64,000 bases of DNA, taken from NCBI GenBank assembly GCA_964449535.1, contig CAYUZA010000002.1, forward strand, positions 45,549 through 109,548, given 5' to 3'. The position numbers and the translations under genes were made by a program. The stretch comes from an uncultured Saprospiraceae bacterium (lineage in GTDB: Bacteria; Bacteroidota; Bacteroidia; Chitinophagales; Saprospiraceae). The notes under the pieces were generated by a model. That model was not told the DNA's origin and made no database searches. It was given only the letters and a program-made list of their open reading frames with translations. Within the stretch, counting starts at the first letter, position 1; each line of letters opens with the position of its first letter. Shown here one piece after another: positions 3,487-46,728 of the stretch.

Positions 3487-3514
3487 AAGTATTGTTCCAC
3501 GTGGAACAATACTT
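3487..3514. repeat. 28-nt perfect palindrome AAGTATTGTTCCACGTGGAACAATACTT (CACGTG core)
   Basis: Read directly. Ends 8 nt before the stop of the convergent hydrolase gene. Confidence 0.9.
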
Positions 3515-15686: not shown

Positions 15687-16238
15687 ATGCACAGAATAAT
15701 TTTTTTTGGATTGACCTTAGTGATATTATCGTGCTCTTCTTCAAAAGACAAAGAAGAAAAACTCCCTTTCGGAAAAGAAGAACTCTTTTCCGAAGTAGCA
15801 GAAAATGTTGATATTTATTACAGCGAAAATGGTCGGGTACAATTGCGAATACAAGGTCCATTGATGGTGAGAAGTTCACATCAGGGGAAGGCAACGGATG
15901 CTTTTCCGGAAGGATTACAAGTAACCTTTTTTGATAATGAAGCCAATGCAAAAAGTTGGCTTAGCGCGAAAAAGGGCACTCGGTATCCCCAAGACAGAAA
16001 AATTGTATTGCAAGATTCTGTTGTTTTCTACAACACAGAACAAGAAGAGTTGCGAACAAGTGAGCTAATATGGTGGGAGTCTGATGGAAGTATGGAAACG
16101 GCTAAATTTGTGGAAATAAAGCGGCCGGGGGAGCGAATTCGTGGATTTGGCTTCAAGGCAAAGGACAATTTAACCCGTTTTGAGATGAATGCCGTCACAG
16201 GCAGAATCAAGGCGGGAGATTTGACGGAGGATTTTTAA
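15687..16238 (+). CDS. Lipoprotein, LptC-like (LPS export periplasmic protein)
   Basis: Lipobox LVILSCSS. Size and beta-jellyroll-like pattern (VVFYNTEQEELRTSELIWWES...) resemble Bacteroidota LptC. Assignment is tentative. Confidence 0.45.
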   Translation: MHRIIFFGLTLVILSCSSSKDKEEKLPFGKEELFSEVAENVDIYYSENGRVQLRIQGPLMVRSSHQGKATDAFPEGLQVTFFDNEANAKSWLSAKKGTRYPQDRKIVLQDSVVFYNTEQEELRTSELIWWESDGSMETAKFVEIKRPGERIRGFGFKAKDNLTRFEMNAVTGRIKAGDLTEDF

Positions 16239-21110: not shown

Positions 21111-22724
21111 TTATATCGGGTTCAAGCCCAATTCTTTCAAATATTCATTGTGTTTATCGGTATTAAACTTAATCATTTCATTAATGGTTGTCAGCTTTTC
21201 GTTTACTTCTTGTAGATCTATTTGCACCTCGTCTTCTGATGTGCTGACATACCTGGAAATATTAAGATTGTACCCGTTTTTCTCAATTTCGTCCATAGAT
21301 ACCCTGCGAGCATATTTCTCTACGTTTTCGGGTCGGTATTGGTAGGTTTCAATGATTTTGTTGATGTGTTCTTCTTCAATGGTGTTTTGTCTTTTGCCGG
21401 CCTTGTAGTGTTCTGCTGCATTGATGAATAATACATCGTCGTGTTTTTTGCATTTTTTCAACACCAAAATACAAACGGGAATACCTGTCGAGTAAAACAA
21501 GTTAGAAGGCAAACCAATAACTGTGTCAATATGGTTGTCCTTTAATAACTTGGTTCTGATCCGCTCTTCTGCCCCACCACGGAACAAAACTCCGTGTGGC
21601 AGGATGATTGCCATAGTTCCATCTTTGGCTAAGAAGTGAAAACCATGCAAAAGAAAGGCAAAGTCTGCGGCCGATTTTGGCGCCAAACCATAATTTTTAA
21701 AACGAAAATCATCTGACATGGATTCGTTAGGCTCCCACCGCAAGCTGAAAGGCGGATTGCATACTATCGCATCAAACTCTATTTTTTTTGCCGGGTTTAA
21801 CTCATTGAACAGCTGCCACTGATTGAGCAGTGTATCTCCATGGAAAATCTCAAACTCCGTATCTTTCATGCCATGAAGAAGCATATTCATTCGGGCAAGG
21901 TTATAAGTGGTGATATTTTTTTCCTGACCATATACTTTTCCGACATATCCACCAATTTCCTTCACCCGACTTCTGAGATTTAGTAGTAGTGACCCTGACC
22001 CACATGTGATGTCCAGGATTTTTTCAAGTTTCTTTCTGAAGCCGGTTGATGGGTCTTGACTGTCCAGAAGAACAATTTTAGAAAGTATGGTAGACATTTG
22101 TTGTGGGGTATAAAACTCACCGGCTTTTTTACCTGATCCCGCAGCAAATTGTCCAATCAAATATTCATAGGCATCGCCCAGGGTGTCCGAGTCCGCTGAA
22201 AAATCTGCTATACCTTCCGATATTTTCTGAATAATGGTGCAAAGTTTTTTGTTTCTTTCGACGGCTGTCTTTCCCAGTTTTTCTGAATTCAAATTGATTT
22301 CAGAAAATAAGCCCTGAAAAGCACTTTCAAAAGATTCGTTTTCGATGTAGCGAAAACCTGCTTCCAGGGTCACCAACAAATCCGGACTCTGGGTGCGTGC
22401 CATTTCGCTGATGTTGCTCCAGAGATGTTCGGGTTTGATGACATAATGCACTTTTCTGCGCATTTGTTTTTCATATTCCGGCACTTCCGGGTCATTTAGC
22501 ACATACCATTCGGCCAATGGGGTACGACCGTCATTTTCATCCAAAACAGGATAATCTCTGCCCAATTCTTTTTTAGCCGCTTCCTCATAATTGTGGCTCA
22601 AATACCGAAGGAAGAGAAAGGATAGCATATAATCGCGAAAATCATCAGCATTCATGGCACCGCGTAGGTTGTCTGCTATGGCCCAAAGGGTTTTACCTAA
22701 TTGTTGTTGGTCTTTATGTGTCAT
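21111..22724 (-). CDS. hsdM: Type I restriction-modification system, methyltransferase subunit
   Basis: HsdM_N-type N-terminus (LWAIADNLRG...FRDYMLSFLFLRYLS), SAM motif I DITCGSGSLL, catalytic NPPF (VCNPPFS). Confidence 0.95.
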   Translation of the reverse strand: MTHKDQQQLGKTLWAIADNLRGAMNADDFRDYMLSFLFLRYLSHNYEEAAKKELGRDYPVLDENDGRTPLAEWYVLNDPEVPEYEKQMRRKVHYVIKPEHLWSNISEMARTQSPDLLVTLEAGFRYIENESFESAFQGLFSEINLNSEKLGKTAVERNKKLCTIIQKISEGIADFSADSDTLGDAYEYLIGQFAAGSGKKAGEFYTPQQMSTILSKIVLLDSQDPSTGFRKKLEKILDITCGSGSLLLNLRSRVKEIGGYVGKVYGQEKNITTYNLARMNMLLHGMKDTEFEIFHGDTLLNQWQLFNELNPAKKIEFDAIVCNPPFSLRWEPNESMSDDFRFKNYGLAPKSAADFAFLLHGFHFLAKDGTMAIILPHGVLFRGGAEERIRTKLLKDNHIDTVIGLPSNLFYSTGIPVCILVLKKCKKHDDVLFINAAEHYKAGKRQNTIEEEHINKIIETYQYRPENVEKYARRVSMDEIEKNGYNLNISRYVSTSEDEVQIDLQEVNEKLTTINEMIKFNTDKHNEYLKELGLNPI

Positions 22725-23332
22725 TGAAAAAATTTATCATTCCGCCAATTGGCAGGGTTATTTATAATGTAATCGGAAATGGTTTGATATGATTTATCAT
22801 CGCGGATAATGCGGTCGTGAAAACGGGGTTGCCATTGAAAATCAGGGTAAATCAAACGGGCATTTTTCGTAACGCCAATTTTAAAACCGCGTATTATTGA
22901 TGCCAAATTTTTGGATTGTGGTCCGAATTGGTTTTTGGGTTGGTTTGGTCCCGTTTCCGTTTCCGTTTCCGTTTCCGTTTCCGTTGAGACGCAATGCATT
23001 GCGTCTCTACAATCCACCGCGCCAACCACCGATTTTCGTTGTGAATTATATTTATTTTCACCAATACCAATTATGGCATGAAAATGATCAGGCATCACCA
23101 CGTATTCACCCATCGACAAATTCATATCGGGGCGTAATGCAAATGTTTTTAACCATTCTGAATTAACAATTTGTCCAATTTGTGACAATTGCATTTTTCC
23201 ACCCACAATTTCCCCAAAATAATGTTCACGGTTTTGGGTACAAATGGTAATAAAATACGCACCCGCCCACCGATAATCCCAATGTTGTGCCCGGGCGGAT
23301 GCAATGCGGTATTTGTTTTTGAATTTTTCCAT
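22721..23332 (-). CDS. Y1 HUH transposase-like protein (IS200-like fold, REP-associated tyrosine transposase / RayT-like)
   Basis: HUH motif MPDHFHAIIG and C-terminal Tyr helix ISDYIINNPANW. The stop overlaps the hsdM start by 4 nt (ATGA). No IS ends were seen. Confidence 0.8.
   Translation of the reverse strand: MEKFKNKYRIASARAQHWDYRWAGAYFITICTQNREHYFGEIVGGKMQLSQIGQIVNSEWLKTFALRPDMNLSMGEYVVMPDHFHAIIGIGENKYNSQRKSVVGAVDCRDAMHCVSTETETETETETGPNQPKNQFGPQSKNLASIIRGFKIGVTKNARLIYPDFQWQPRFHDRIIRDDKSYQTISDYIINNPANWRNDKFFQ
22951..22985. repeat. Hexanucleotide microsatellite (CCGTTT) x ~5.8, in frame, encoding (TE)5 on the minus strand
   Basis: Read directly: ccgtttccgtttccgtttccgtttccgtttccgtt. Translates to STETETETETETG inside the Y1 gene. 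Confidence 0.95.
22986..23007. repeat. P1: 22-nt perfect palindrome GAGACGCAATGCATTGCGTCTC inside the Y1 gene
   Basis: Read directly. 11-bp self-complementary arms. Encodes RDAMHCVS on the minus strand. Confidence 0.95.
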
Positions 23333-23335
23333 CTT

Positions 23336-24586
23336 CTATCCTTTAACCATAGGAAACAAACCCTGCATCAACCCCTTTTTATGCAACTTCAATTGTTCTA
23401 TCTTCTCCGCCTGTGCCGTGATAAGGGCATCTAAAGACGACAGACAAGAAGCGATTTTTTGTTGTTCTTTTGGGTTCATAGGAAAGGTGATATTCAAGGA
23501 TTGTAATTGACTTGAATATAGGTGCACAACCGAAATTCCTTGAGCCAGCTGAGCAATTTCAGATTTTTTCGCGCTATTCAAATAGTAGGCTAAAAAGACA
23601 CCATCAAAATCGGAACGGATAATATTCAAATCACCTCCCAAAGCAATACCGCTTCTCAGAACGCAGGATGCAGTTGCAATATCATTTTGGGTTTCACCTG
23701 ATGCTGGAATAATAACATCATTCTCTTCGCTTAGCATCAATTCATTAGCATTTAAATGGGTGTAAGATTTCACAACATCAATAGTTTCATTGTAATGAGT
23801 ATATAACTCACCATATCTAATACAGGGTAATATGCCATTTTCAACAATATCTGATTTTGAAATTCCTTTGCCTTTGTAGAATGTAGCAACCTCCCCCAAC
23901 TTCTTCTCCACCCACTCCCCATCTTTCTCAAACTCTTTAAAGCGAACCTTCGGCACTTTCTCGCCTGCTGAAGGAAAAAGGTTTTGCATCAAGCCTTTTT
24001 TGTGGTCTCGCAGAGACGCAATGCGTTGCGTCTCTGCGGCTATCAGGTCATCTAAGGAGGAGAGGCAAGAGGCGATTTTTTGTTGTTCTTTCGGATTCAT
24101 TGGAAATTTGACACCAATATTTTTTAAGTCGGAATTGTATAAACGACTGATAACACCACCATCAGAAGTTTGCCATTTAATAATTGAATAACAATGGTAT
24201 AAAAACTCATTCAGAATCTGCTTTTCATCATTACCCAGCCATACAATATTTGAATCCTGAAAATATGCCGGTGAGCCATCGTAAACTACAAGTCTGCCAA
24301 TTGTACCAGATGCGGAAATTAAGATATCACCCATTTTAGGGAACGAATATTTGCTTTTGAATTCTTCATACAAATCAAATGAAATATAAGCATCTGCTTG
24401 TTTTCCAAATGTTCCGATTTTATAAAAAGGAATTCTATTATTTGGATTTGTAGTTGTTTGTTCTTTGAATATCCGTTTACACATTAATGGTTCACCAATT
24501 TCCCCCAACTTCTTCTCCACCCACTCCCCCTCATTCTCAAACTCAGGAAAACGCCATTTAGGTATTAGTTTATTTGTCTTACTCAT
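23336..24586 (-). CDS. hsdS: Type I restriction-modification system, specificity subunit (two TRDs)
   Basis: Duplicated architecture: EFE(N/K)(E/D)GEWVEKKLGE at each TRD start and FPMNPKEQQKIASCLSSLD...HKKGLMQ.LFP at each conserved region. Confidence 0.9.
   Translation of the reverse strand: MSKTNKLIPKWRFPEFENEGEWVEKKLGEIGEPLMCKRIFKEQTTTNPNNRIPFYKIGTFGKQADAYISFDLYEEFKSKYSFPKMGDILISASGTIGRLVVYDGSPAYFQDSNIVWLGNDEKQILNEFLYHCYSIIKWQTSDGGVISRLYNSDLKNIGVKFPMNPKEQQKIASCLSSLDDLIAAETQRIASLRDHKKGLMQNLFPSAGEKVPKVRFKEFEKDGEWVEKKLGEVATFYKGKGISKSDIVENGILPCIRYGELYTHYNETIDVVKSYTHLNANELMLSEENDVIIPASGETQNDIATASCVLRSGIALGGDLNIIRSDFDGVFLAYYLNSAKKSEIAQLAQGISVVHLYSSQLQSLNITFPMNPKEQQKIASCLSSLDALITAQAEKIEQLKLHKKGLMQGLFPMVKG
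24010..24037. repeat. P2: 28-nt hairpin-palindrome GCAGAGACGCAATGCGTTGCGTCTCTGC inside the hsdS central conserved region
   Basis: Read directly. 12-bp arms around TGCG. The inner 22 nt differ from P1 at one position. Encodes AETQRIASL on the minus strand. Confidence 0.95.
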
Positions 24587-25610
24587 CTTTTCTCTCTGTT
24601 GCGTTTATTTCGTTCAATACTAAGGTTTGCAGTTCGTCTTTTGGCAATAACAATTGGTATTCGGCTACGCCTATTGGTTTGTTAATGTCTTGCAGTGCTA
24701 TTTCCACATCCAAATGGTCTTTATCGGCACAGAGAATAATACCAATAGAAGGGTTTTCGTTTTCTCCTTTTTCCAATTTATCCAACAGGGAAAGATAGAG
24801 GTTCATTTTGCCTACATATTCGGCTTTAAAACTGCCAATCTTTAATTCAATAGCCACCAAAGACTGTAATCCTCTGTGGAAGAAAAGCATATCCACAAAA
24901 TATTCTTTGTTGTTGTACTCCAAGCGGTATTGGTTGCCTATAAATGAAAATCCTCTGCCTAACTCCAATACAAAAGCCCTGATTTTGGCTATCAACCTGT
25001 TTTCTAACTCTAATTCTTTTACAGGTTCCGTAATGCCTAGAAAACCGAGGTTGTAAGAGCTTTTAAATACTTCGTTGGCATATTCGGCACTTACTTCAGG
25101 CAATGTATTGCTGAAATTGTTGCTTTTCAGTTGGTTTTCAGCATGGCTGTAAATATCCATTTTGATGGCATTGAGTAATAAATCTCTGCTCCAACCTTTG
25201 GTTACGGCTTCATTGGCATAATATGCAACAGCTTCAAGTGACTGAATTTTGTTGATTAACAGTAAATTGTGTCCCCACGGCAAAACTGCGACAAGCTGTC
25301 GCAGTTTTGGGTCAGTCAAATAGTAACGCTCATAAAAACGTTTCATATCCCACAAGTTGCGAGGTGATAAGCCCATATCAGGAAATTCGATTTTGAGGTC
25401 AATGGACAATTGTTTAACAACACCACTGCCATAGCCTTCTTCTAACTGTTTTTCGAAGAGTAGTTTTCCCAAATTCCAATACACGGAATTTGTGGTACTG
25501 TTTACCTGTTTTGCAATTAGCGTTCGGGCAGTTTGGATTTGAGCTACCGCCTGTAGCAGTATTTTTCTGTAATCCGAATCGTTGATATTTATTTGAGGTT
25601 TATTACTCAT
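24579..25610 (-). CDS. DUF1016 / YhcG-like PD-(D/E)XK nuclease-fold protein
   Basis: N-terminal helical region (NSVYWNLGKLL...LPWGHNLLL) and C-terminal FVDMLFFHRGLQSLVAIELKIGSFKAEYVGKMNLYL (D...E-x-K). Overlaps the hsdS start by 8 nt. Confidence 0.8.
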   Translation of the reverse strand: MSNKPQININDSDYRKILLQAVAQIQTARTLIAKQVNSTTNSVYWNLGKLLFEKQLEEGYGSGVVKQLSIDLKIEFPDMGLSPRNLWDMKRFYERYYLTDPKLRQLVAVLPWGHNLLLINKIQSLEAVAYYANEAVTKGWSRDLLLNAIKMDIYSHAENQLKSNNFSNTLPEVSAEYANEVFKSSYNLGFLGITEPVKELELENRLIAKIRAFVLELGRGFSFIGNQYRLEYNNKEYFVDMLFFHRGLQSLVAIELKIGSFKAEYVGKMNLYLSLLDKLEKGENENPSIGIILCADKDHLDVEIALQDINKPIGVAEYQLLLPKDELQTLVLNEINATERKDE

Positions 25611-25616
25611 TTCGAT

Positions 25617-28604
25617 TTATTTATTATCATAAGCAGCCAAACCGCTTATTTCTCTGCCTTGAGCTAGCTTTTTTAACTGCGGCACCAGGTCTGCCATCAA
25701 TGCCAATTCTTTCACCCTGCGCTCTTTCCAGCTCAATTCCAATGGCTCTAGTAGATCGGTGAGCTTTTCACCGTCAAAAACCATCCGGCTCAATATGTTT
25801 TCTACAAAGCTTTTCAAATCTGCCATTTGTAGGCCGTGTTGGTGGGCAATGGCAGCCAGTTCTGCATGGTATTTGTCGTCTTTAAACTTTTCGTAGCCTT
25901 TTCGTAATTCTGCTTCTGTTTGCCCTTTGTTCCAATCCAGCCTATCGATGTATTCGGATAGGGCTTCTTCCTCGTCCATCAAATTGGAATTGGAGCGCAA
26001 GATACTTTTTACCTGTTCTTTGCTCATTTTCTGCTTGCCGGGTGTTCTTTGAGTGCTGTCGGCAATCAGGTTCATAATGTAGTCATAATCAATCACCGCA
26101 GAAGCAAACAACACAAATTCAAAATCCAGTTGCTGAATTTCGGGCGGTGTATCCTCTCCGCCTTTTTGTTGTATTTTCCGAAATTGCTTGGCCGTTTCTA
26201 AATAAGAGCTTCGGAATTCTAAAAAGGTATCTTTAGGTAAGATTTGATTAATAAGTTCTTTTTGCTCCGGCTCTAAATCTGTAAATTGTTCTAATGCAAG
26301 CAACTGGCGCTGTACTTCTTTAAAATTCTGAACGAAAGCAATTTTAGCAGCGTTGCCTCTTACATTATAAACTTCTTGTGGTTCGCAAACCAAGCCTTGT
26401 TCTTGCATAAAGAGATTCAGGCGTTCGACCGCATCCTTGAATTTTTCAATAACCACGGGTGCGGGGTCAACCAACCAAATTTCTCTTGATTTATTTTCAT
26501 CTATACCAGAAAACAAGGCAATGGCGTTGTTAACCGCATCTTGTTGCGAGCGAAAATCAAGGATGTTTCCATGGGGTTTGGTATCATTTAGCACACGGTT
26601 GGTTCGCGAAAACGCCTGAATCAATCCGTGGTATTTCAGGTTTTTGTCCACGTACAAGGTGTTCAGATACTTGCTGTCGAACCCGGTGAGCAGCATGTCT
26701 ACTACTATAGTGATGTCAATCTTATTTTTGTGCGGATAGTCTTTGTTGCTGTATTTCTGATTTTTGATGCGCGTTTGTACATCCTGGTAAAACAGGTCAA
26801 AAAAGTTAATATCAAAACTGGTGCCATAACGCTTGTTGTAATCAGCTATAATGGTTTTCAGAGCAGCTTTCTTTTCATCTGGATTTTGTTTGTTGTCCTC
26901 TTTCTCTTGGGATAAATCTTCCTGAATCTGCTGAATGTCGGTGTTGCCTTCGGCTGGTGGGGAGAATACGCAGGCGATATTCAAAGGCACATAGTCGGGA
27001 CTAGACGCAACGCGTTGCGACTGTATTTCCTTAAAAAGATTGTAATATTCAATGGCGCTGTTGATAGAAGCTGTGGCCAACACGGCATTGAATCGTCTAG
27101 AATTGGTAGCGGCATCGTGTTTGTCCAAAATAGCTTCTACTACTGCCTGTTGGGCAATGGCTTCGCCTGGCTTAGCTTGAATTTCACCTTTTCCTTTAAA
27201 GTAGTCTATGTGAAAACGCAATACATTTTTATCTTCAATGGCGTGGGTGATAGTGTAGGCGTGTAATTGCTTTTCAAAAATATCTTGTGTGGTTTTGTAA
27301 GAAGCAAACTCACCCTCTCTGATGTTGTATGATGAGTTTTCATCAAAAATAGGTGTTCCGGTAAAACCAAAAAGTTGAGCATTCGGGAAAAACTCCTTAA
27401 TGGCTTTGTGATTTTCTCCAAATTGCGAACGATGGCACTCATCGAAAATAAAAACCATCCGTTTGCTTCGAAGCGGTTCTAGTCTTTCCTTGTAGTTGAG
27501 GCGCGACGCATCGCGTCTTTGCGAGCCATCTAAAGCCAAACCCAATTTCTGAATCGTGGTGACAATCACCTTGTCGGCATAGTCGGCCGAAAGTAAACGC
27601 CTTACTAATGTTTCGGTATTGGTGTTTTCTTCTACGCTTCCTTCTTGGAATTTATTGAACTCTTCACGCGTTTGGCGATCAAGGTCTTTGCGGTCTACCA
27701 CGAACAAACATTTTTCAATGTCGGCATTGTCTTTAAGAAGGGTAGCAGCTTTGAAAGAAGTCAGCGTTTTACCGCTTCCTGTAGTATGCCAGATATAGCC
27801 GTTGCCACGGTTTTGTTGGATGCAATCAATTATCGCATTTACAGCATAAATCTGATACGGCCGCATAATGAGCAACTTCTGTTCACTCTCCACGAGTACC
27901 ATATACTTGCTAATCATACTGCCCAAAGTGCATTTGGGCAGGAATTTTTCGGTAAAGGTTTCAAGGTGAGTTATTTTCTTATTGCTCTCGTCTGCTAGTT
28001 GATAAATTGGTAAGAATTGCTCGTCTGCATTAAAAGAGAAATGTTGGTTCTTGTTGTTGGCAAAATAATAGGTATTTGTCTTGTTGCTTACAACAAACAA
28101 CTGCATATAGCAAAGCAATGAATTACCGTAACCGTTTCCAGCTTCATTTTTATAATCTACAATTTGCTGCATTGCTTTTCTTGGTGCAATATCGAGGTTT
28201 TTTAACTCTATTTGCACCACAGGTAAGCCGTTGATCAAGAGAATCACGTCATAACGTTGATGACTGTTTTCTGTATTGATACGCAATTGACTGATAACTT
28301 CAAAATCATTTTTGCACCAGTCTTTGTTGTTTACCAAAGTGTAATGCAAAGGCGTTCCGTCTTCACGCTGAAAGTATTGTCTTTCACGCAACAATTTTGA
28401 TGCTTTGAACACATCAGGTTGTATGATTTCTTCTCTCAATCTTAAAAATTCGTTGTCAGACAAACGAACACGGTTGAGTGTTTCAAATTTTGTTTTGAAG
28501 TTTTGTTCAAGCGTTTTTCTATCAACTATGTCAGGGCGATGTGTGTATTTCAGCCCTTTCAGTTGCTCGATTAGATATTCTTCTATTTGATTCTCTTTGC
28601 TCAT
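25617..28604 (-). CDS. hsdR: Type I restriction endonuclease, R subunit
   Basis: N-terminal nuclease region, helicase motif I HTTGSGKTLTSF, motif II FDECHRSQ. About 996 aa from MSKENQIEEYL. The upstream 30 codons of the ORF are judged non-coding. Confidence 0.95.
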   Translation of the reverse strand: MSKENQIEEYLIEQLKGLKYTHRPDIVDRKTLEQNFKTKFETLNRVRLSDNEFLRLREEIIQPDVFKASKLLRERQYFQREDGTPLHYTLVNNKDWCKNDFEVISQLRINTENSHQRYDVILLINGLPVVQIELKNLDIAPRKAMQQIVDYKNEAGNGYGNSLLCYMQLFVVSNKTNTYYFANNKNQHFSFNADEQFLPIYQLADESNKKITHLETFTEKFLPKCTLGSMISKYMVLVESEQKLLIMRPYQIYAVNAIIDCIQQNRGNGYIWHTTGSGKTLTSFKAATLLKDNADIEKCLFVVDRKDLDRQTREEFNKFQEGSVEENTNTETLVRRLLSADYADKVIVTTIQKLGLALDGSQRRDASRLNYKERLEPLRSKRMVFIFDECHRSQFGENHKAIKEFFPNAQLFGFTGTPIFDENSSYNIREGEFASYKTTQDIFEKQLHAYTITHAIEDKNVLRFHIDYFKGKGEIQAKPGEAIAQQAVVEAILDKHDAATNSRRFNAVLATASINSAIEYYNLFKEIQSQRVASSPDYVPLNIACVFSPPAEGNTDIQQIQEDLSQEKEDNKQNPDEKKAALKTIIADYNKRYGTSFDINFFDLFYQDVQTRIKNQKYSNKDYPHKNKIDITIVVDMLLTGFDSKYLNTLYVDKNLKYHGLIQAFSRTNRVLNDTKPHGNILDFRSQQDAVNNAIALFSGIDENKSREIWLVDPAPVVIEKFKDAVERLNLFMQEQGLVCEPQEVYNVRGNAAKIAFVQNFKEVQRQLLALEQFTDLEPEQKELINQILPKDTFLEFRSSYLETAKQFRKIQQKGGEDTPPEIQQLDFEFVLFASAVIDYDYIMNLIADSTQRTPGKQKMSKEQVKSILRSNSNLMDEEEALSEYIDRLDWNKGQTEAELRKGYEKFKDDKYHAELAAIAHQHGLQMADLKSFVENILSRMVFDGEKLTDLLEPLELSWKERRVKELALMADLVPQLKKLAQGREISGLAAYDNK
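27003..27022. repeat. P3: 20-nt palindrome AGACGCAACGCGTTGCGACT (one mismatch) inside hsdR
   Basis: Read directly. 18/20 identical to the core of P2, in the same reading frame relative to the palindrome (SQRVASS versus TQRIASL). Confidence 0.85.
27499..27518. repeat. P4: hairpin AGGCGCGA-CGCA-TCGCGTCT inside hsdR (possible degenerate relative of P1-P3)
   Basis: 8-bp stem with one G-T pair and a 4-nt loop. Shares GACGCA and GCGTCT with P1-P3. Encodes RRDASRL. Confidence 0.5.
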
Positions 28605-29183
28605 GGTTATTCTTTCAGAAAATATTTGGCATAGACGCCTAGAATTTGTGCAATTAGGTACAAACATTTTATTCAGGGTTGCCTCACGCTTCAAGCATAC
28701 GCGTTGATCCTGTTGTAGCTTTTTTCTATCAGCGCAACAAACTCGGTTTGTGATTTACCGCTCTTTTTCAAAACTTCTTTAACACTGCTCCATTGATCCG
28801 AAGAAAATTTAATAAGCCAAAGATAGCAAAATCCCGCAGTCAGATAGTGAAAAAATAGCATAAGGTGGCCATGGTTGCCCAATGGAAAGCCCCGCTGCTA
28901 CGGCAAGCCCCAAAAAAGCATGATCGTGCGGCCGTTTTAAAAAGTATTAAAAAATATAAAGAGAGGGACACGGTGAGCAGGAAGTATATATGCGCTGTAT
29001 ATCAACAGGTTGTGACACAATAAGCGTTTGCAAGCGGGTACAAACGACTATAAACGAGAGATAAATGTTTAATTACCGGAAGTTGGATTTAAGGGCCCGC
29101 ATCTTTGCATTGTCATTGGAACTGGCCAGCAAATGACGATAACGACACAAAAACATTTATTTATTATTAAAAACGCAATTATT

Positions 29184-45079: not shown

Positions 45080-45613
45080 ATGAAATCTTTACGTCTGGCT
45101 TTTTTACCTTTGTTCTTATTATCCTGGATATCGATGATCGGTCAGAGTGCACACTCATTCTCATTGGAGGCTATAGATGGAAAGACCATCAATCTCAGCC
45201 AATATAAAGGCAAGAAAATTTTGTTGGTTAACGTGGCGTCGGCTTGTGGATATACGCCCCAATACAAAAAACTGCAAGAGCTATATGAAACTTATGGGGA
45301 AAAAGTAGTTGTGATTGGAATTCCGTGTAATGATTTTGGCAGACAGGAGTCCGGAACAAATGCGGAAATCGCAGAATTTTGTTCAAGCAAATATGCGATA
45401 ACTTTCCCTATGGCCGCCAAAGTTTCGATAAAGGGCAACGACCAACATCCGCTTTACAAATGGCTTACAAATAAATCCGAAAATGGAGTGATGGATGCAG
45501 ATGTTCGATGGAATTTTAACAAATTTCTATTGGACGAAAATGGTAAATTGATAGAACATTTTGGATCTGGTGTTAGTCCACTCGATGAAAAAATAACTAA
45601 ATGGCTGAAATAG
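45080..45613 (+). CDS. Glutathione peroxidase family protein (secreted or lipid-anchored)
   Basis: VNVASACGYTPQY (Cys active site), FPCNDFG-like IPCNDFGRQE, WNFNKFL. Start set to MKSLRLAFL. Confidence 0.85.
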   Translation: MKSLRLAFLPLFLLSWISMIGQSAHSFSLEAIDGKTINLSQYKGKKILLVNVASACGYTPQYKKLQELYETYGEKVVVIGIPCNDFGRQESGTNAEIAEFCSSKYAITFPMAAKVSIKGNDQHPLYKWLTNKSENGVMDADVRWNFNKFLLDENGKLIEHFGSGVSPLDEKITKWLK

Positions 45614-46728
45614 GCACAAAAGGAGTTTTAGGTCAGGCTCATGCCATCTCATTTTTGCAACAAAGTTATTTAAGCAGCAGAATACCCCATGCTTTGTTAA
45701 TACACGGGCTGCCAGGGTCTGGTCAGTTAGCCCTTGCTCTGTATACCGCAAGACTCCTTCAATGCCGGGAGGCCACCGATGGAAAGCCTTGTGGAAGCTG
45801 CAATCAGTGCCAAAAAGTAAAAAACGGAACCCACCCTGACGTCCATTTTTTGTTTCCTGTGCCTAATTTAGGAGAACAAAAAAAGAAACCGTCTCATTTT
45901 GAAGCGATTTTTAGAGAGGCTCTCGCCCAAAGTGCTTATAGGAGCCTGACTGCTTGGCTGTCAAAGCTGGATGCAGAACAAAAAACGCCCAATATCTCTG
46001 CAGAAGCATGCCGAGACGCGCTGCATGAGCTTGGACTTCATCGTGGGGAGGGAAACTACAAAATTCTAATAATCTGGCTCCCAGAGTTTTTAGGCAAAGA
46101 AGGGAATATCCTTCTAAAAGAAATAGAGGAACCTGCGCCCAATACCGCCATTATCCTGGCCACGGACAATGCAGAGCAAATCTTGCCAACCATTCAATCT
46201 CGCTGTCAATCTATTAGATTGGTCCCGTTAAAAAGTACTGAAGTGCAAGATGGTCTAATTCAGCAACTTTCCTGTGATCCTGTCTTAGCAGAAGAGGTCT
46301 CTTGGCTATCTGCTGGAAATATGGATTTGGCGCTGGACAAAGCGAGCGATCTTGATGCGGCAAATTCAACACAGTTTCTTGATTGGTTGCGGGGAGCCTA
46401 TCAGGGGGATGTGCTTACAATGAGTCAATGGGCAGACCAGTTGAGCGCCATGCCGAAGAACAGACAAAAGGCTTTTTTAGAATATTTTATGCATGTAATG
46501 CAACAATCTATTTTGGTAGGGATACTTCCAGATGACTCTTTGCATATGCCTTCTCATGAAATAGCCGCCTTGCATAAACTTAAGCCCATTTTAGATGTCG
46601 ATAAGCTTAAAAAACTGCAAATGCGAATCGATGAAGATTTGTCCGCTATGGAGCAAAACGCCAATCCTAAAATAGTTTTCATGGCATTGACAGTCTACAC
46701 CCATCAAGTCCTGAGGGGGCGGGCTTAG
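45601..46728 (+). CDS. holB: DNA polymerase III delta-prime subunit
   Basis: HALLIHGLPGSGQLALAL P-loop-like motif, zinc module CGSCNQCQKV..GTHPDV, SRCQ sensor (IQSRCQSIRL). Confidence 0.8.
   Translation: MAEIGTKGVLGQAHAISFLQQSYLSSRIPHALLIHGLPGSGQLALALYTARLLQCREATDGKPCGSCNQCQKVKNGTHPDVHFLFPVPNLGEQKKKPSHFEAIFREALAQSAYRSLTAWLSKLDAEQKTPNISAEACRDALHELGLHRGEGNYKILIIWLPEFLGKEGNILLKEIEEPAPNTAIILATDNAEQILPTIQSRCQSIRLVPLKSTEVQDGLIQQLSCDPVLAEEVSWLSAGNMDLALDKASDLDAANSTQFLDWLRGAYQGDVLTMSQWADQLSAMPKNRQKAFLEYFMHVMQQSILVGILPDDSLHMPSHEIAALHKLKPILDVDKLKKLQMRIDEDLSAMEQNANPKIVFMALTVYTHQVLRGRA

What the first reader, a model, noticed from the sequence alone, without database searches (positions are those of the whole stretch)
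24010..24037. Near-identical copy of the same palindrome inside the hsdS central conserved region, replacing an equal-length segment
GCAGAGACGCAATGCGTTGCGTCTCTGC has 12-bp arms. Its inner 22 nt differ from the palindrome in the Y1 gene at a single central base, which is far beyond chance for a 22-mer. hsdS contains an internal paralogous region, the C-terminal conserved region. Two anchors flanking the site (TGCATCAA and GCGATTTTTTGTTGTTCTTT) are offset by exactly 621 nt in both cases. The palindrome therefore occupies the same length as the non-palindromic paralogous segment at 23389-23416 (AETQRIASLRD versus AQAEKIEQLKL). It looks like an overwrite (gene conversion or templated repair) rather than an insertion. 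In type I systems the central conserved region sets the spacing of the two half-sites, as with the TAEL repeats of EcoR124I/II. Sequence turnover here is therefore functionally sensitive. A stable hairpin in ssDNA or mRNA at this position could also be a regulatory or recombination site for the adjacent Y1 enzyme.
Basis: seen in the sequence. Interest (0 to 1): 0.72.

Follow-up and report, generated by a model that had tools for sequence, protein, structure and literature searches.

The report
Transposase hairpin overwritten into restriction gene
The palindrome inside the restriction-specificity gene hsdS is a copy of the 28-base hairpin (a REP element) recognised by the small transposase-like gene next door. 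It replaced an equal-length stretch of coding DNA instead of being inserted, which is an unusual footprint for this kind of selfish repeat.

Summary
A 28-nt palindrome sits at 24010-24037 (arms extend to 24009-24038) in the hsdS central conserved region, and its 22-nt core matches the palindrome in the adjacent Y1 gene at 21/22 bases.

The Y1 gene is a REP-associated tyrosine transposase (RAYT/TnpA_REP) of subclass 2.4 (Bertels Group 4). The palindrome is that family's known "double-foot" REP, GTAGAGACGCAAnnnnTTGCGTCTCTAC. A REP inside the RAYT gene itself is already published, and the word occurs in many phyla.

- **What goes beyond the literature I read:** none of 119 listed hsdS homologues has the REP-coded peptide, and their conserved region has the same length. 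In five orthologous operons the flanks are 78-97% identical while the patch is 43% identical (L122/L123), with no indel.
- **Two further patches:** decayed REP-like patches lie in hsdR at exactly the segments that differ from orthologues. One is equal length and one is +15 nt.
- **Effect on the protein:** the hsdS patch encodes ETQRIASLR in place of HSQKLELLK, inside a confidently predicted helix. TRD spacing is therefore unchanged.

Best reading: a selfish REP footprint made by short templated overwriting near its RAYT, tolerated because it stays helix-compatible. The mechanism is inferred. There is no evidence for a regulatory or shufflon role. New variant of a known kind; moderate interest.

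The parts
24009..24038 (-). P2: REP copy in the hsdS central conserved region. The 28-nt unit is 24010-24037. On the sense strand it reads GCAGAGACGCAA-CGCA-TTGCGTCTCTGC and encodes A-ETQRIASLR (residues 184-193).
   Evidence: Equal-length replacement relative to orthologues.
22983..23010 (-). P1: REP inside the RAYT gene. On the sense strand it reads GTAGAGACGCAA-TGCA-TTGCGTCTCAAC and encodes (C)RDAMHCVST.
   Evidence: Identical in L121 and L194. REP-within-gene is a published trait of subclass 2.4.
22952..22985 (-). Hexanucleotide repeat (GGAAAC)n immediately 3' of P1 in the gene, encoding TETETETE. Copy number varies: there are four fewer units in the 99%-identical L121.
22721..23332 (-). 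RAYT / TnpA_REP gene (203 aa), subclass 2.4 = Bertels Group 4. Motifs are DHFH (family NHFH), WQ and YIINNP. It is packed between the hsdS stop (3-nt gap) and the hsdM start (ATGA overlap).
23336..24586 (-). hsdS (416 aa): two TRDs, a central helix at residues 165-203 and a C-terminal helix at 372-410.
27002..27023 (-). P3: decayed REP-like patch in hsdR (15/18 core bases). It encodes QSQRVASS where orthologues have QKKKQTEN/KKKLTEN, at equal length.
27498..27519 (-). P4: decayed REP-like patch in hsdR (14/18 core bases; CGA-stem variant with a compensated pair). It encodes RRDASRL, a net +15 nt relative to orthologues (DG-SNKR/TNKK-NYKER).
25617..28694 (-). hsdR (EcoR124-type). The true start is probably the ATG at 28604, by alignment to the orthologue.
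24579..25610 (-). DUF1016/YhcG PD-(D/E)XK guest gene between hsdR and hsdS.
21111..22724 (-). hsdM. No REP-like patch was found.

Best explanation
P2 is an intragenic copy of the 28-nt 'double-foot' REP hairpin (consensus GTAGAGACGCAAnnnnTTGCGTCTCTAC). This hairpin is the cognate DNA of the subclass 2.4 / Group 4 REP-associated tyrosine transposase (RAYT) encoded immediately downstream of hsdS.

It was written into hsdS as a short, length-preserving patch of about 22-28 nt, not as a clean insertion. I infer that the patch was copied from a REP donor by short-tract conversion or polymerase template switching on single-stranded DNA near the RAYT locus. RAYT binding or nicking of hairpin DNA may have started the event.

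The same process, earlier in this operon's history, left two now-decayed REP patches in hsdR. One is equal length. The other overlays a pre-existing AAACGC and nets +15 nt.

The hsdS copy persists because in its reading frame it encodes ETQRIASLR. That peptide keeps the helix, the I/L core positions and the exact length of the native HSQKLELLK, so the distance between the two target-recognition domains is unchanged. I see it as a selfish-DNA footprint rather than a regulator of the restriction system. If it has a role, it is as the RAYT gene's only nearby upstream flanking REP.

Shown: the identity of the repeat, its family, the equal-length replacement, the clustering in the operon and the helix context. 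Inferred: the templated mechanism, RAYT involvement and neutrality.
For: 1. Family identity. The Y1 ORF hits NCBIfam REP_Tyr_transpos and has 7264 homologues, several named RayT. Its motifs DHFH/WQ/YIINNP match subclass 2.4 in Table 1 of PMC6006769. That paper describes double-foot REPs (5' GT[AG]G ... C[TC]AC 3') and REPs inserted in frame within these genes.
2. RDAMHCVST is nearly invariant in 24 aligned homologues. It sits within a region of variable length in that alignment. 102 of 120 homologues carry such a peptide.
3. 151 genomic copies from many phyla give the consensus GTA-GAGACGCAA-nnnn-TTGCGTCTC-TAC.
4. Canonical REPtrons (L125, L008, L108) have REPs 50-55 nt upstream and 22-40 nt downstream of the gene.
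5. Overwrite. 0 of 119 listed hsdS homologues have the peptide, and the conserved region has the same length in all those where it could be located. In L122/L123 the flanks are 84-97% identical and the 28-nt patch is 12/28, with no gap. 12 of the 15 positions at which the window differs from all five orthologues fall within 26 nt.
6. Two more REP-like matches, with 3 and 4 mismatches of 18 (0.015 and 0.14 expected), lie in hsdR of the same operon. They coincide with short patches that differ from the L123 orthologue and from most of 120 homologues.
7. Orthologous operons without a RAYT (L122, L123, L127-L129) contain no REP-like site.
8. AlphaFold model: pLDDT 91; residues 165-203 form one helix with block pLDDT of about 96.
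9. Template switching is a documented way to create perfect hairpins as multi-nucleotide patches (PMC8794818). The route by which REPs spread is stated to be unresolved (PMC8266576).
Against: The mechanism is not observed, only its footprint, and the sample is four patches.

- Pre-existing similarity of the hsdS site to the REP is modest: 11/24, in the top 2% of positions in the orthologous operon. Homology guidance is therefore weakly supported.
- P2 deviates from the consensus feet (GCAG/CTGC instead of GTAG/CTAC). A single simple conversion tract from P1 does not reproduce it exactly.
- P4 is of a different stem variant from P1, so at least one donor is no longer visible in the window.
- A diverged operon with a RAYT in the same slot (L126) has no REP in hsdS or hsdM, so RAYT presence alone does not produce patches.
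- The window's RAYT has D instead of the near-invariant N in the HUH motif, and its activity is unknown.
- P2 is supported by a single assembly.
- The AlphaFold helix is partly dictated by the alignment.
Confidence: 0.6

Rival explanations
1. Ordinary REP transposition followed by selection. A 22-28-nt REP was inserted by the RAYT, causing a frameshift. Only lineages that also suffered an adjacent deletion restoring frame and helix length survived. The equal length is then a selection filter, not a property of the mechanism.
For: A 28- or 22-nt unit cannot be inserted in frame, so every surviving intragenic copy must carry a compensating change. Intragenic REPs are described in the literature as insertions. 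One of the three patches here is +15 nt, not 0. An RND-transporter copy in L034 appears to be about +3 aa (by my own comparison with the equivalent region of L090 and recalled AcrB sequence).
Against: Two independent exact equal-length outcomes occur in one operon (P2 and P3). A frameshifted hsdS or hsdR intermediate would have to persist until an exactly compensating 28- or 21-nt deletion arose next to it. The +15 cases (P4, and the N-terminal patch in the L126 RAYT) are explained more simply as a REP overlaying 6-9 nt of similar pre-existing sequence.
Confidence: 0.2
2. P2 was copied by intragenic gene conversion or unequal crossing-over from a REP that once lay at the paralogous site of the C-terminal conserved region. 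That site is where an upstream flanking REP of the RAYT would normally sit. Homologous flanks then enforced the equal length.
For: The site paralogous to P2 (23389-23416) lies 56 nt upstream of the RAYT start codon. Upstream REPs in three unrelated REPtrons lie 50, 53 and 55 nt upstream. L108's upstream REP has the same GCAG foot. The window's TRD1 is homologous to the C-terminal TRD of many relatives. L121 shows recent TRD2 replacement.
Against: The present C-terminal region has no REP in the window, L121 or L126. Both flanks of P2 are of the central-region type: right flank 94-97% against 67%, left flank 84-86% against 80%. The model only moves the problem, because a REP in the C-terminal region would itself have been an equal-length overwrite. 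The distance coincidence has roughly a 5% chance.
Confidence: 0.1
3. P2 is a functional site. It and P1 are substrates for RAYT-catalysed deletion, inversion or exchange of the TRD2-containing kilobase (a new kind of hsdS phase variation), or the hairpin regulates operon mRNA.
For: The two cognate hairpins are about 1 kb apart and bracket TRD2. L121 carries a different TRD2 in otherwise 99% identical DNA. Half-size HsdS proteins can be active (established knowledge, not tested here).
Against: There is no second hsdS cassette or silent TRD in the window. The L121 divergence ends at the C-terminal conserved region, not at P1. P1 and P2 are in different reading frames, so deletion or inversion would destroy both genes. 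P2 lacks GTAG on both strands, and GTAG is the conserved REP foot important for TnpA_REP recognition in E. coli. No terminator-like site or Rfam match overlaps P2. No other hsdS carries a REP there.
Confidence: 0.07
4. Artefact or chance: a mis-assembly at a palindrome, or convergent similarity.
For: P2 is seen in only one assembly. The independent Logan contig ends 89 nt short of it.
Against: 0.00 chance matches are expected. The patch is in frame, helix-compatible and flanked by orthologous sequence on both sides. The Logan contig break is explained by the internal GEWVEKKLGE repeat.
Confidence: 0.03

Closest known systems
Double-foot REP sequences of TnpA_REP subclass 2.4 (Quentin, Siguier, Chandler, Fichant 2018, PMC6006769) = RAYT Group 4 (Bertels et al. 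2017, PMC5581495)
   Same: It is a perfect long hairpin with 5' GT[AG]G and 3' C[TC]AC feet. A copy is inserted in frame between the HUH and Tyr motifs of the RAYT gene. Copy number is low and the phylum distribution is wide and patchy. The protein motifs are NH[IFV]H / WQ / YIxNNP.
   Different: The hsdS copy lies inside a neighbouring gene's conserved helix and has GCAG/CTGC feet. It replaces an equal length of DNA, whereas the paper speaks of insertions. The RAYT here has no intergenic flanking REPs because it is packed ORF-to-ORF in a type I R-M operon.
Intragenic REPs and Rickettsia palindromic elements (Di Nocera et al. 2013, PMC3733652; Ogata et al. 2000, from my own knowledge)
   Same: These are palindromic repeats that sit in frame inside functional genes, often genes acting on DNA, and that are tolerated by the protein.
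   Different: Those are described as insertions that add residues, 20-80 aa for dimers and clusters. Here two of three patches add none.
E. coli REP/BIME with TnpA_REP (Ton-Hoang 2012; Messing 2012, PMC3479197; Corneloup 2021, PMC8266576)
   Same: An HUH/Y1 enzyme pairs with a GTAG-footed hairpin, and the REPs cluster around the gene (a REPtron). The enzyme cleaves ssDNA at C|T next to the hairpin and can transfer strands. The route by which REPs spread is unresolved.
   Different: It belongs to a different subclass (2.2/Group 2), with bulged imperfect hairpins, hundreds of extragenic copies and no copy inside the gene.
Template-switch (quasi-palindrome) mutation creating hairpins (e.g. PMC8794818, PMC7202029)
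   Same: A single event replaces a run of bases and yields a perfect stem.
   Different: In that process the donor is the adjacent complementary arm. Here the product matches a dispersed family consensus, so the donor must be a REP.
Phase-variable type I hsdS shufflons and EcoR124I/II TAEL repeat variation (established knowledge)
   Same: Sequence change occurs in hsdS conserved regions next to a recombinase-like gene.
   Different: There are no multiple hsdS cassettes, no inverted repeats shared between cassettes and no integrase-family recombinase. The conserved-region length is unchanged.

Membership tests
Double-foot REP of TnpA_REP subclass 2.4 | Long perfect hairpin (stem of about 12 bp, short loop) | tested here: met
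   P2 has 13-nt perfect arms and a 4-nt loop, at -17.3 kcal/mol. P1 has 14-nt arms with one mismatch.
Double-foot REP of TnpA_REP subclass 2.4 | 5' GT[AG]G foot and 3' C[TC]AC foot | tested here: not met
   P2 reads GCAG...CTGC on both strands. 12 of 151 genomic copies also have C at that position. P1 has GTAG on the sense strand but CAAC at the other end. The core stem and loop length match the family, so P2 is a foot variant.
Double-foot REP of TnpA_REP subclass 2.4 | Physical association with a tnpA_REP gene (flanking it or inside it) | tested here: met
   P1 lies inside the gene. P2 lies 677 nt upstream of its start. P3 and P4 lie 3.7-4.2 kb upstream in the same operon.
Double-foot REP of TnpA_REP subclass 2.4 | Multiple dispersed copies in the host genome | not testable with these tools
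   Only 64 kb of the genome is available, holding 2 perfect and 2 decayed copies.
REP in the classical sense (repetitive extragenic palindrome) | Extragenic location | tested here: not met
   All four copies in the window are inside ORFs. In other genomes many copies of this family also lie in long ORFs, in the frames ETQxxASL and RDAxxCVST.
RAYT / TnpA_REP (HUH Y1 enzyme), subclass 2.4 | HUH motif NH[IFV]H, conserved WQ, and Tyr motif YIxNNP | tested here: met
   The window has DHFH (N to D at a position that is N in at least 90% of 24 homologues), WQ and YIINNP.
RAYT / TnpA_REP (HUH Y1 enzyme), subclass 2.4 | Score above the curated family threshold | tested here: inconclusive
   NCBIfam NF047646 scores 59.7 bits against a cut-off of 80, in two stretches split by the REP-bearing insertion. 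There is no Pfam hit. Homologues score at E-values down to 1e-126, and several are named RayT by JGI.
RAYT / TnpA_REP (HUH Y1 enzyme), subclass 2.4 | Cleavage and strand transfer of its REP in ssDNA | not testable with these tools
   This requires biochemistry.
Phase-variable hsdS shufflon | Two or more hsdS cassettes sharing inverted repeats, plus a tyrosine (integrase-family) recombinase | tested here: not met
   tblastn of HsdS against the window finds only the gene itself. The neighbouring enzyme is HUH-type.
EcoR124-type spacer-length variation | Change in the number of residues in the central conserved region | tested here: not met
   The conserved region has the same length as in the listed homologues whose conserved region could be located, and aligns gap-free with five orthologous DNAs.

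The most novel reading that the evidence does not exclude
REPs of this RAYT family can spread by a length-preserving, templated 'overwrite' of nearby DNA. This would be short-tract conversion or copy-choice primed at the hairpin, preferentially near the RAYT gene and at sites with slight pre-existing similarity. It would be a second mode of REP dissemination distinct from cut-and-paste or peel-and-paste insertion, and one that can recode conserved protein segments without indels.
Probability: 0.3. Interest if true: 0.7.

Novelty: new variant of a known kind. Interest (0 to 1): 0.5.

Why it matters
How REP sequences multiply is still stated to be unresolved (PMC8266576). Intragenic copies with closely related REP-free orthologues act as natural before-and-after records of single events. 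This operon holds three such records, at 0, 0 and +15 nt. They argue that at least some copies arise by overlaying existing sequence rather than by clean insertion. If that holds generally, it constrains the enzymology towards priming or copy-choice rather than excision and integration. It would also explain why this REP family is so often found in frame inside genes. Finally, it would mean that a domesticated transposase can rewrite short stretches of neighbouring genes. For the restriction system itself the consequence is probably nil, because spacing is unchanged and the helix is kept.

Tried and rejected
1. Recurrence in other hsdS genes. Two metagenome scans found nothing: one for the REP followed by D-H-K-K-G in register, one for the REP followed by KGLMQ within 30 nt. 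None of the 119 listed homologues has it.
2. Shufflon or second-cassette idea. No other hsdS-like sequence is in the window. A weak Y1 tblastn hit at 45724-46026 falls in an ORF that looks like DNA polymerase III delta' (holB) by my reading of its sequence and is likely spurious.
3. Terminator, promoter or RNA-family role. Counts are no higher than in shuffles, nothing lies at P2 and there is no Rfam match.
4. Homology-guided targeting. The orthologous site scores only 11/24 against the REP consensus, in the top 2% of positions, which is too weak to claim.
5. Donor at the paralogous C-terminal site. The distance coincidence (56 nt against 50-55 nt) is suggestive, but the flanks of P2 are of the central type and no allele carrying a C-terminal REP was found.
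6. Looking for REP patches in hsdM and the DUF1016 gene. None was found.
7. Independent confirmation of P2. The exact HsdS is not on record in the contig index, and the Logan contig stops at 23921.
8. Organism identity. The source carries no names. The homologue names suggest Bacteroidota, which is not proven.
9. Generalising insertion versus overlay to other genomes.
Full report
**The observation.** The sequence GCAGAGACGCAATGCGTTGCGTCTCTGC is present at 24010-24037, and perfect pairing extends to 13-nt arms at 24009-24038. Its 22-nt core differs at one central base from the palindrome at 22986-23007. Allowing up to three mismatches, these are the only matches in the window, against none in 100 shuffles. 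As ssDNA the hairpin is very stable: -17.3 kcal/mol, z = -7.9. The paralogous and orthologous sites do not fold.

**Gene context.** All genes below are on the minus strand.

| Coordinates | Gene |
|---|---|
| 25617-28694 | hsdR, EcoR124-type |
| 24579-25610 | DUF1016/YhcG nuclease gene |
| 23336-24586 | hsdS |
| 22721-23332 | 203-aa Y1 gene |
| 21111-22724 | hsdM |

The Y1 gene starts 3 nt after the hsdS stop, and its stop overlaps the hsdM start.

**What the Y1 gene and its palindrome are.**
- The Y1 protein has no Pfam hit. It matches NCBIfam 'REP-associated tyrosine transposase' in two pieces below threshold.
- It has more than 7000 homologues, several labelled RayT.
- Its motifs (DHFH, WQ, YIINNP) fit subclass 2.4 of Quentin et al. 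2018, which equals Group 4 of Bertels et al. 2017.
- That paper describes, for this subclass only, 'double-foot' REPs (5' GT[AG]G ... C[TC]AC 3') and REP copies inserted in frame inside the tnpA_REP gene between the HUH and Tyr motifs.
- In 24 aligned homologues the REP-encoded peptide RDAMHCVST is almost invariant. The region around it varies in length in that alignment. 102 of 120 homologues carry such a peptide.

The copy in the Y1 gene (P1) is therefore a known family trait.

**The word across genomes.**
They come from Bacteroidota, Planctomycetota, Chloroflexota, Myxococcota, candidate phyla and others. It also occurs in 62 viral-contig stretches.
- The 151 copies give a 28-nt consensus, GTA-GAGACGCAA-nnnn-TTGCGTCTC-TAC.
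- Most copies are not within the fetched 8 kb of a Y1 gene.
- Many lie inside long ORFs in two frames, ETQxxASL and RDAxxCVST. The third frame contains the TAG of the GTAG foot.
- Canonical gene-plus-REP units are visible in L125, L008 and L108. Their REPs lie 50-55 nt upstream and 22-40 nt downstream of the gene.

**The hsdS copy is an equal-length replacement.**
- Among the 119 other best HsdS homologues none has a REP-type peptide. Where the central conserved region could be located it has the same length, typically ...LDEVIAAHSQKLELLKDHKKGLMQNLFP....
- DNA of two orthologous operons (L122, L123) is 84-97% identical to the window in the flanks. It is only 12/28 identical across the patch, with no gap.
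- With five orthologues, 12 of the 15 positions at which the window differs from all of them fall within 26 nt.
- 'Overwrite, not insertion' therefore holds against orthologues as well as against the internal paralogue.
- The replaced peptide is HSQKLELLK and the new one is ETQRIASLR. Q and the second L are identical, K to R (twice) and L to I are conservative, and the single loop difference from P1 gives Arg rather than Cys.
- An AlphaFold model built on 50 sequences (pLDDT 91) places residues 165-203 in one long helix with block pLDDT of about 96.
- Length, and therefore TRD spacing, is unchanged.

**Two more patches in the same operon.**
- A relaxed scan for the REP core found two further matches: 27002-27023 (3 mismatches of 18) and 27498-27519 (4 mismatches, with a compensated stem pair typical of the CGA stem variant seen in L125). 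Expectations were 0.015 and 0.14. Both lie in hsdR.
- The window's HsdR is 88% identical to its L123 orthologue over that protein's 989 residues. In that alignment these two sites are two of the few multi-residue divergent patches. They read QSQRVASS against KKKLTEN (equal length) and SQRRDASRL against TNKK (+5 aa).
- Among 120 homologues the usual states are QKKKQTEN-like (15-residue segment in 56 of 60 that could be scored, the same length as the window) and DG-xxKK/RR-NYKER (11-residue segment in 56 of 85, against the window's 16).
- One homologue (P0248) shares a REP-like QSVCMAS at the first site but lacks the insertion at the second.
- At the second site orthologues read AAC AAA CGC AAC. 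The window reads AGA CGC GAT GCG TCG CGC CTC AAC. That is a REP core laid over a pre-existing ...ACGC..., netting +15 nt.
- The RAYT of a diverged operon (L126) shows the same pattern. Its REP-like patch nets +5 aa where the window has AATGCAATTGTC. Seven of 121 family members have +5 aa there.
- Operons without a RAYT have no REP-like site. hsdM has none.

**Interpretation.**
- The identity of P2 as a copy of the RAYT's cognate REP is secure. That it replaced rather than lengthened the gene is directly shown.
- The patches cluster in the 7.6-kb operon that houses the RAYT. Perfect (P2) and decayed (P3, P4) copies coexist.
- A diverged operon (L126, about 74% nucleotide identity) carries a RAYT in the same slot.
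- Together these points indicate a long association with repeated events.
- I infer a short templated process: conversion or template switching with a REP as donor on single-stranded DNA, perhaps started by RAYT binding or nicking.
- Template switching is known to create perfect hairpins as multi-base patches (PMC8794818). HUH cleavage leaves a 3'-OH that 'can serve to prime replication', an option the REP literature leaves open (PMC8266576).
- This step is inference.
- The main rival is ordinary insertion with compensating deletion filtered by selection, and it cannot be excluded with four events.

**A suggestive but weak observation.** The site paralogous to P2 lies 56 nt upstream of the RAYT start, which is the usual place of an upstream flanking REP (50, 53 and 55 nt in three other loci). 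P2 may therefore have been copied from a former REP in the C-terminal conserved region. However, both flanks of P2 are of the central type and no such allele was found.

**What it is not.**
- There is no second hsdS cassette and no integrase-type recombinase.
- No terminator-like site or Rfam match overlaps P2.
- No recurrence was found in other hsdS genes.
- The near-identical relative L121 has a different TRD2, but its divergence ends at the C-terminal conserved region, not at P1.
- P2 also lacks GTAG on both strands, so it may be a poor substrate.
- A regulatory or phase-variation role is therefore unsupported.

**Novelty.** The REP type, its presence inside the RAYT gene and intragenic REPs in general are published. 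Those accounts describe insertions that add residues. In the papers I read and the searches I ran, I found no description of equal-length overwriting of conserved coding sequence next to the RAYT gene. I rate it a new variant of a known kind, of moderate interest, because it bears on the unresolved question of how REPs spread.

**Limits.** The sample is four patches, P2 rests on one assembly, there is no biochemistry, and the rest of the genome could not be examined.

Noticed in passing
window 27002-27023 and 27498-27519 (hsdR): Two decayed REP-like palindromes lie inside hsdR, at exactly the short patches that differ from orthologous HsdR proteins. One is equal length and the other is +15 nt over a pre-existing ...ACGC....
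   Followed up: yes
window 25281-25309 (DUF1016/YhcG gene): A perfect palindrome with 13-nt arms, CAAAACTGCGACA-AGC-TGTCGCAGTTTTG, encodes PKLRQLVAVLPW. It is unrelated in sequence to the REP and is absent from the DUF1016 homologue in L129. Five perfect hairpins with arms of at least 11 nt occur in the window, against about 0.05 in shuffles, and three of them are in this operon.
   Followed up: partly
window 3487-3514 and 15768-15794: There is a 28-nt perfect palindrome, AAGTATTGTTCCAC|GTGGAACAATACTT, and an 11-nt-arm hairpin, TTCGGAAAAGA...TCTTTTCCGAA. Their function is unknown.
   Followed up: no
window 22721-23332 and 24579-25610; loci L121-L123, L126-L129: Orthologous type I operons have two 'guest gene' slots filled ORF-to-ORF by unrelated genes. 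The hsdS-hsdM slot holds a RAYT (window, L121, L126), KilA-N (L122, L123), AAA_13 (L127, L128) or DUF1016 (L129). The hsdR-hsdS slot holds DUF1016 (window), PDDEXK_3 (L122, L123) or nothing (L127). The junctions are only 0-4 nt wide.
   Followed up: partly
window 22952-22985: The (GGAAAC)n repeat encoding TETETETE directly follows the REP in the RAYT gene. There are four fewer units in the 99%-identical metagenome contig L121. Other family members have different short repeats at the same place (PHEPHK, NAPTINPT).
   Followed up: partly
window 23086-23097 (RAYT HUH motif, approx.): The window's RAYT has DHFH where L121 and at least 90% of aligned homologues have NHFH. This may affect activity.
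   Followed up: no
L121:1-90 versus window 23470-23560: A contig otherwise 99% identical carries a different TRD2 in hsdS, which indicates recent specificity-domain exchange in this operon lineage.
   Followed up: partly
window 23389-23416: The site in the C-terminal conserved region that is paralogous to P2 lies 56 nt upstream of the RAYT start. That is the same distance as the upstream flanking REP in three unrelated REPtrons (50, 53 and 55 nt). The match is unexplained and may be coincidence.
   Followed up: partly
window 24579-25610 versus L129:1426-2541: The two DUF1016 proteins are nearly identical in their C-terminal halves but diverge in their N-terminal halves, which suggests mosaic recombination.
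   Followed up: no
window 46006-46030 (ORF 45601-46728, probably holB): CGAGACGCGCTGCATGAG encodes CRDALHE and resembles half a REP. It produced a weak Y1 tblastn hit and is probably chance.
   Followed up: no
L132-L193 (IMG/VR contigs): The REP word occurs in 62 viral-contig stretches, some holding 3-5 copies. Groups of contigs share identical spacing, for example 1857 nt.
   Followed up: no
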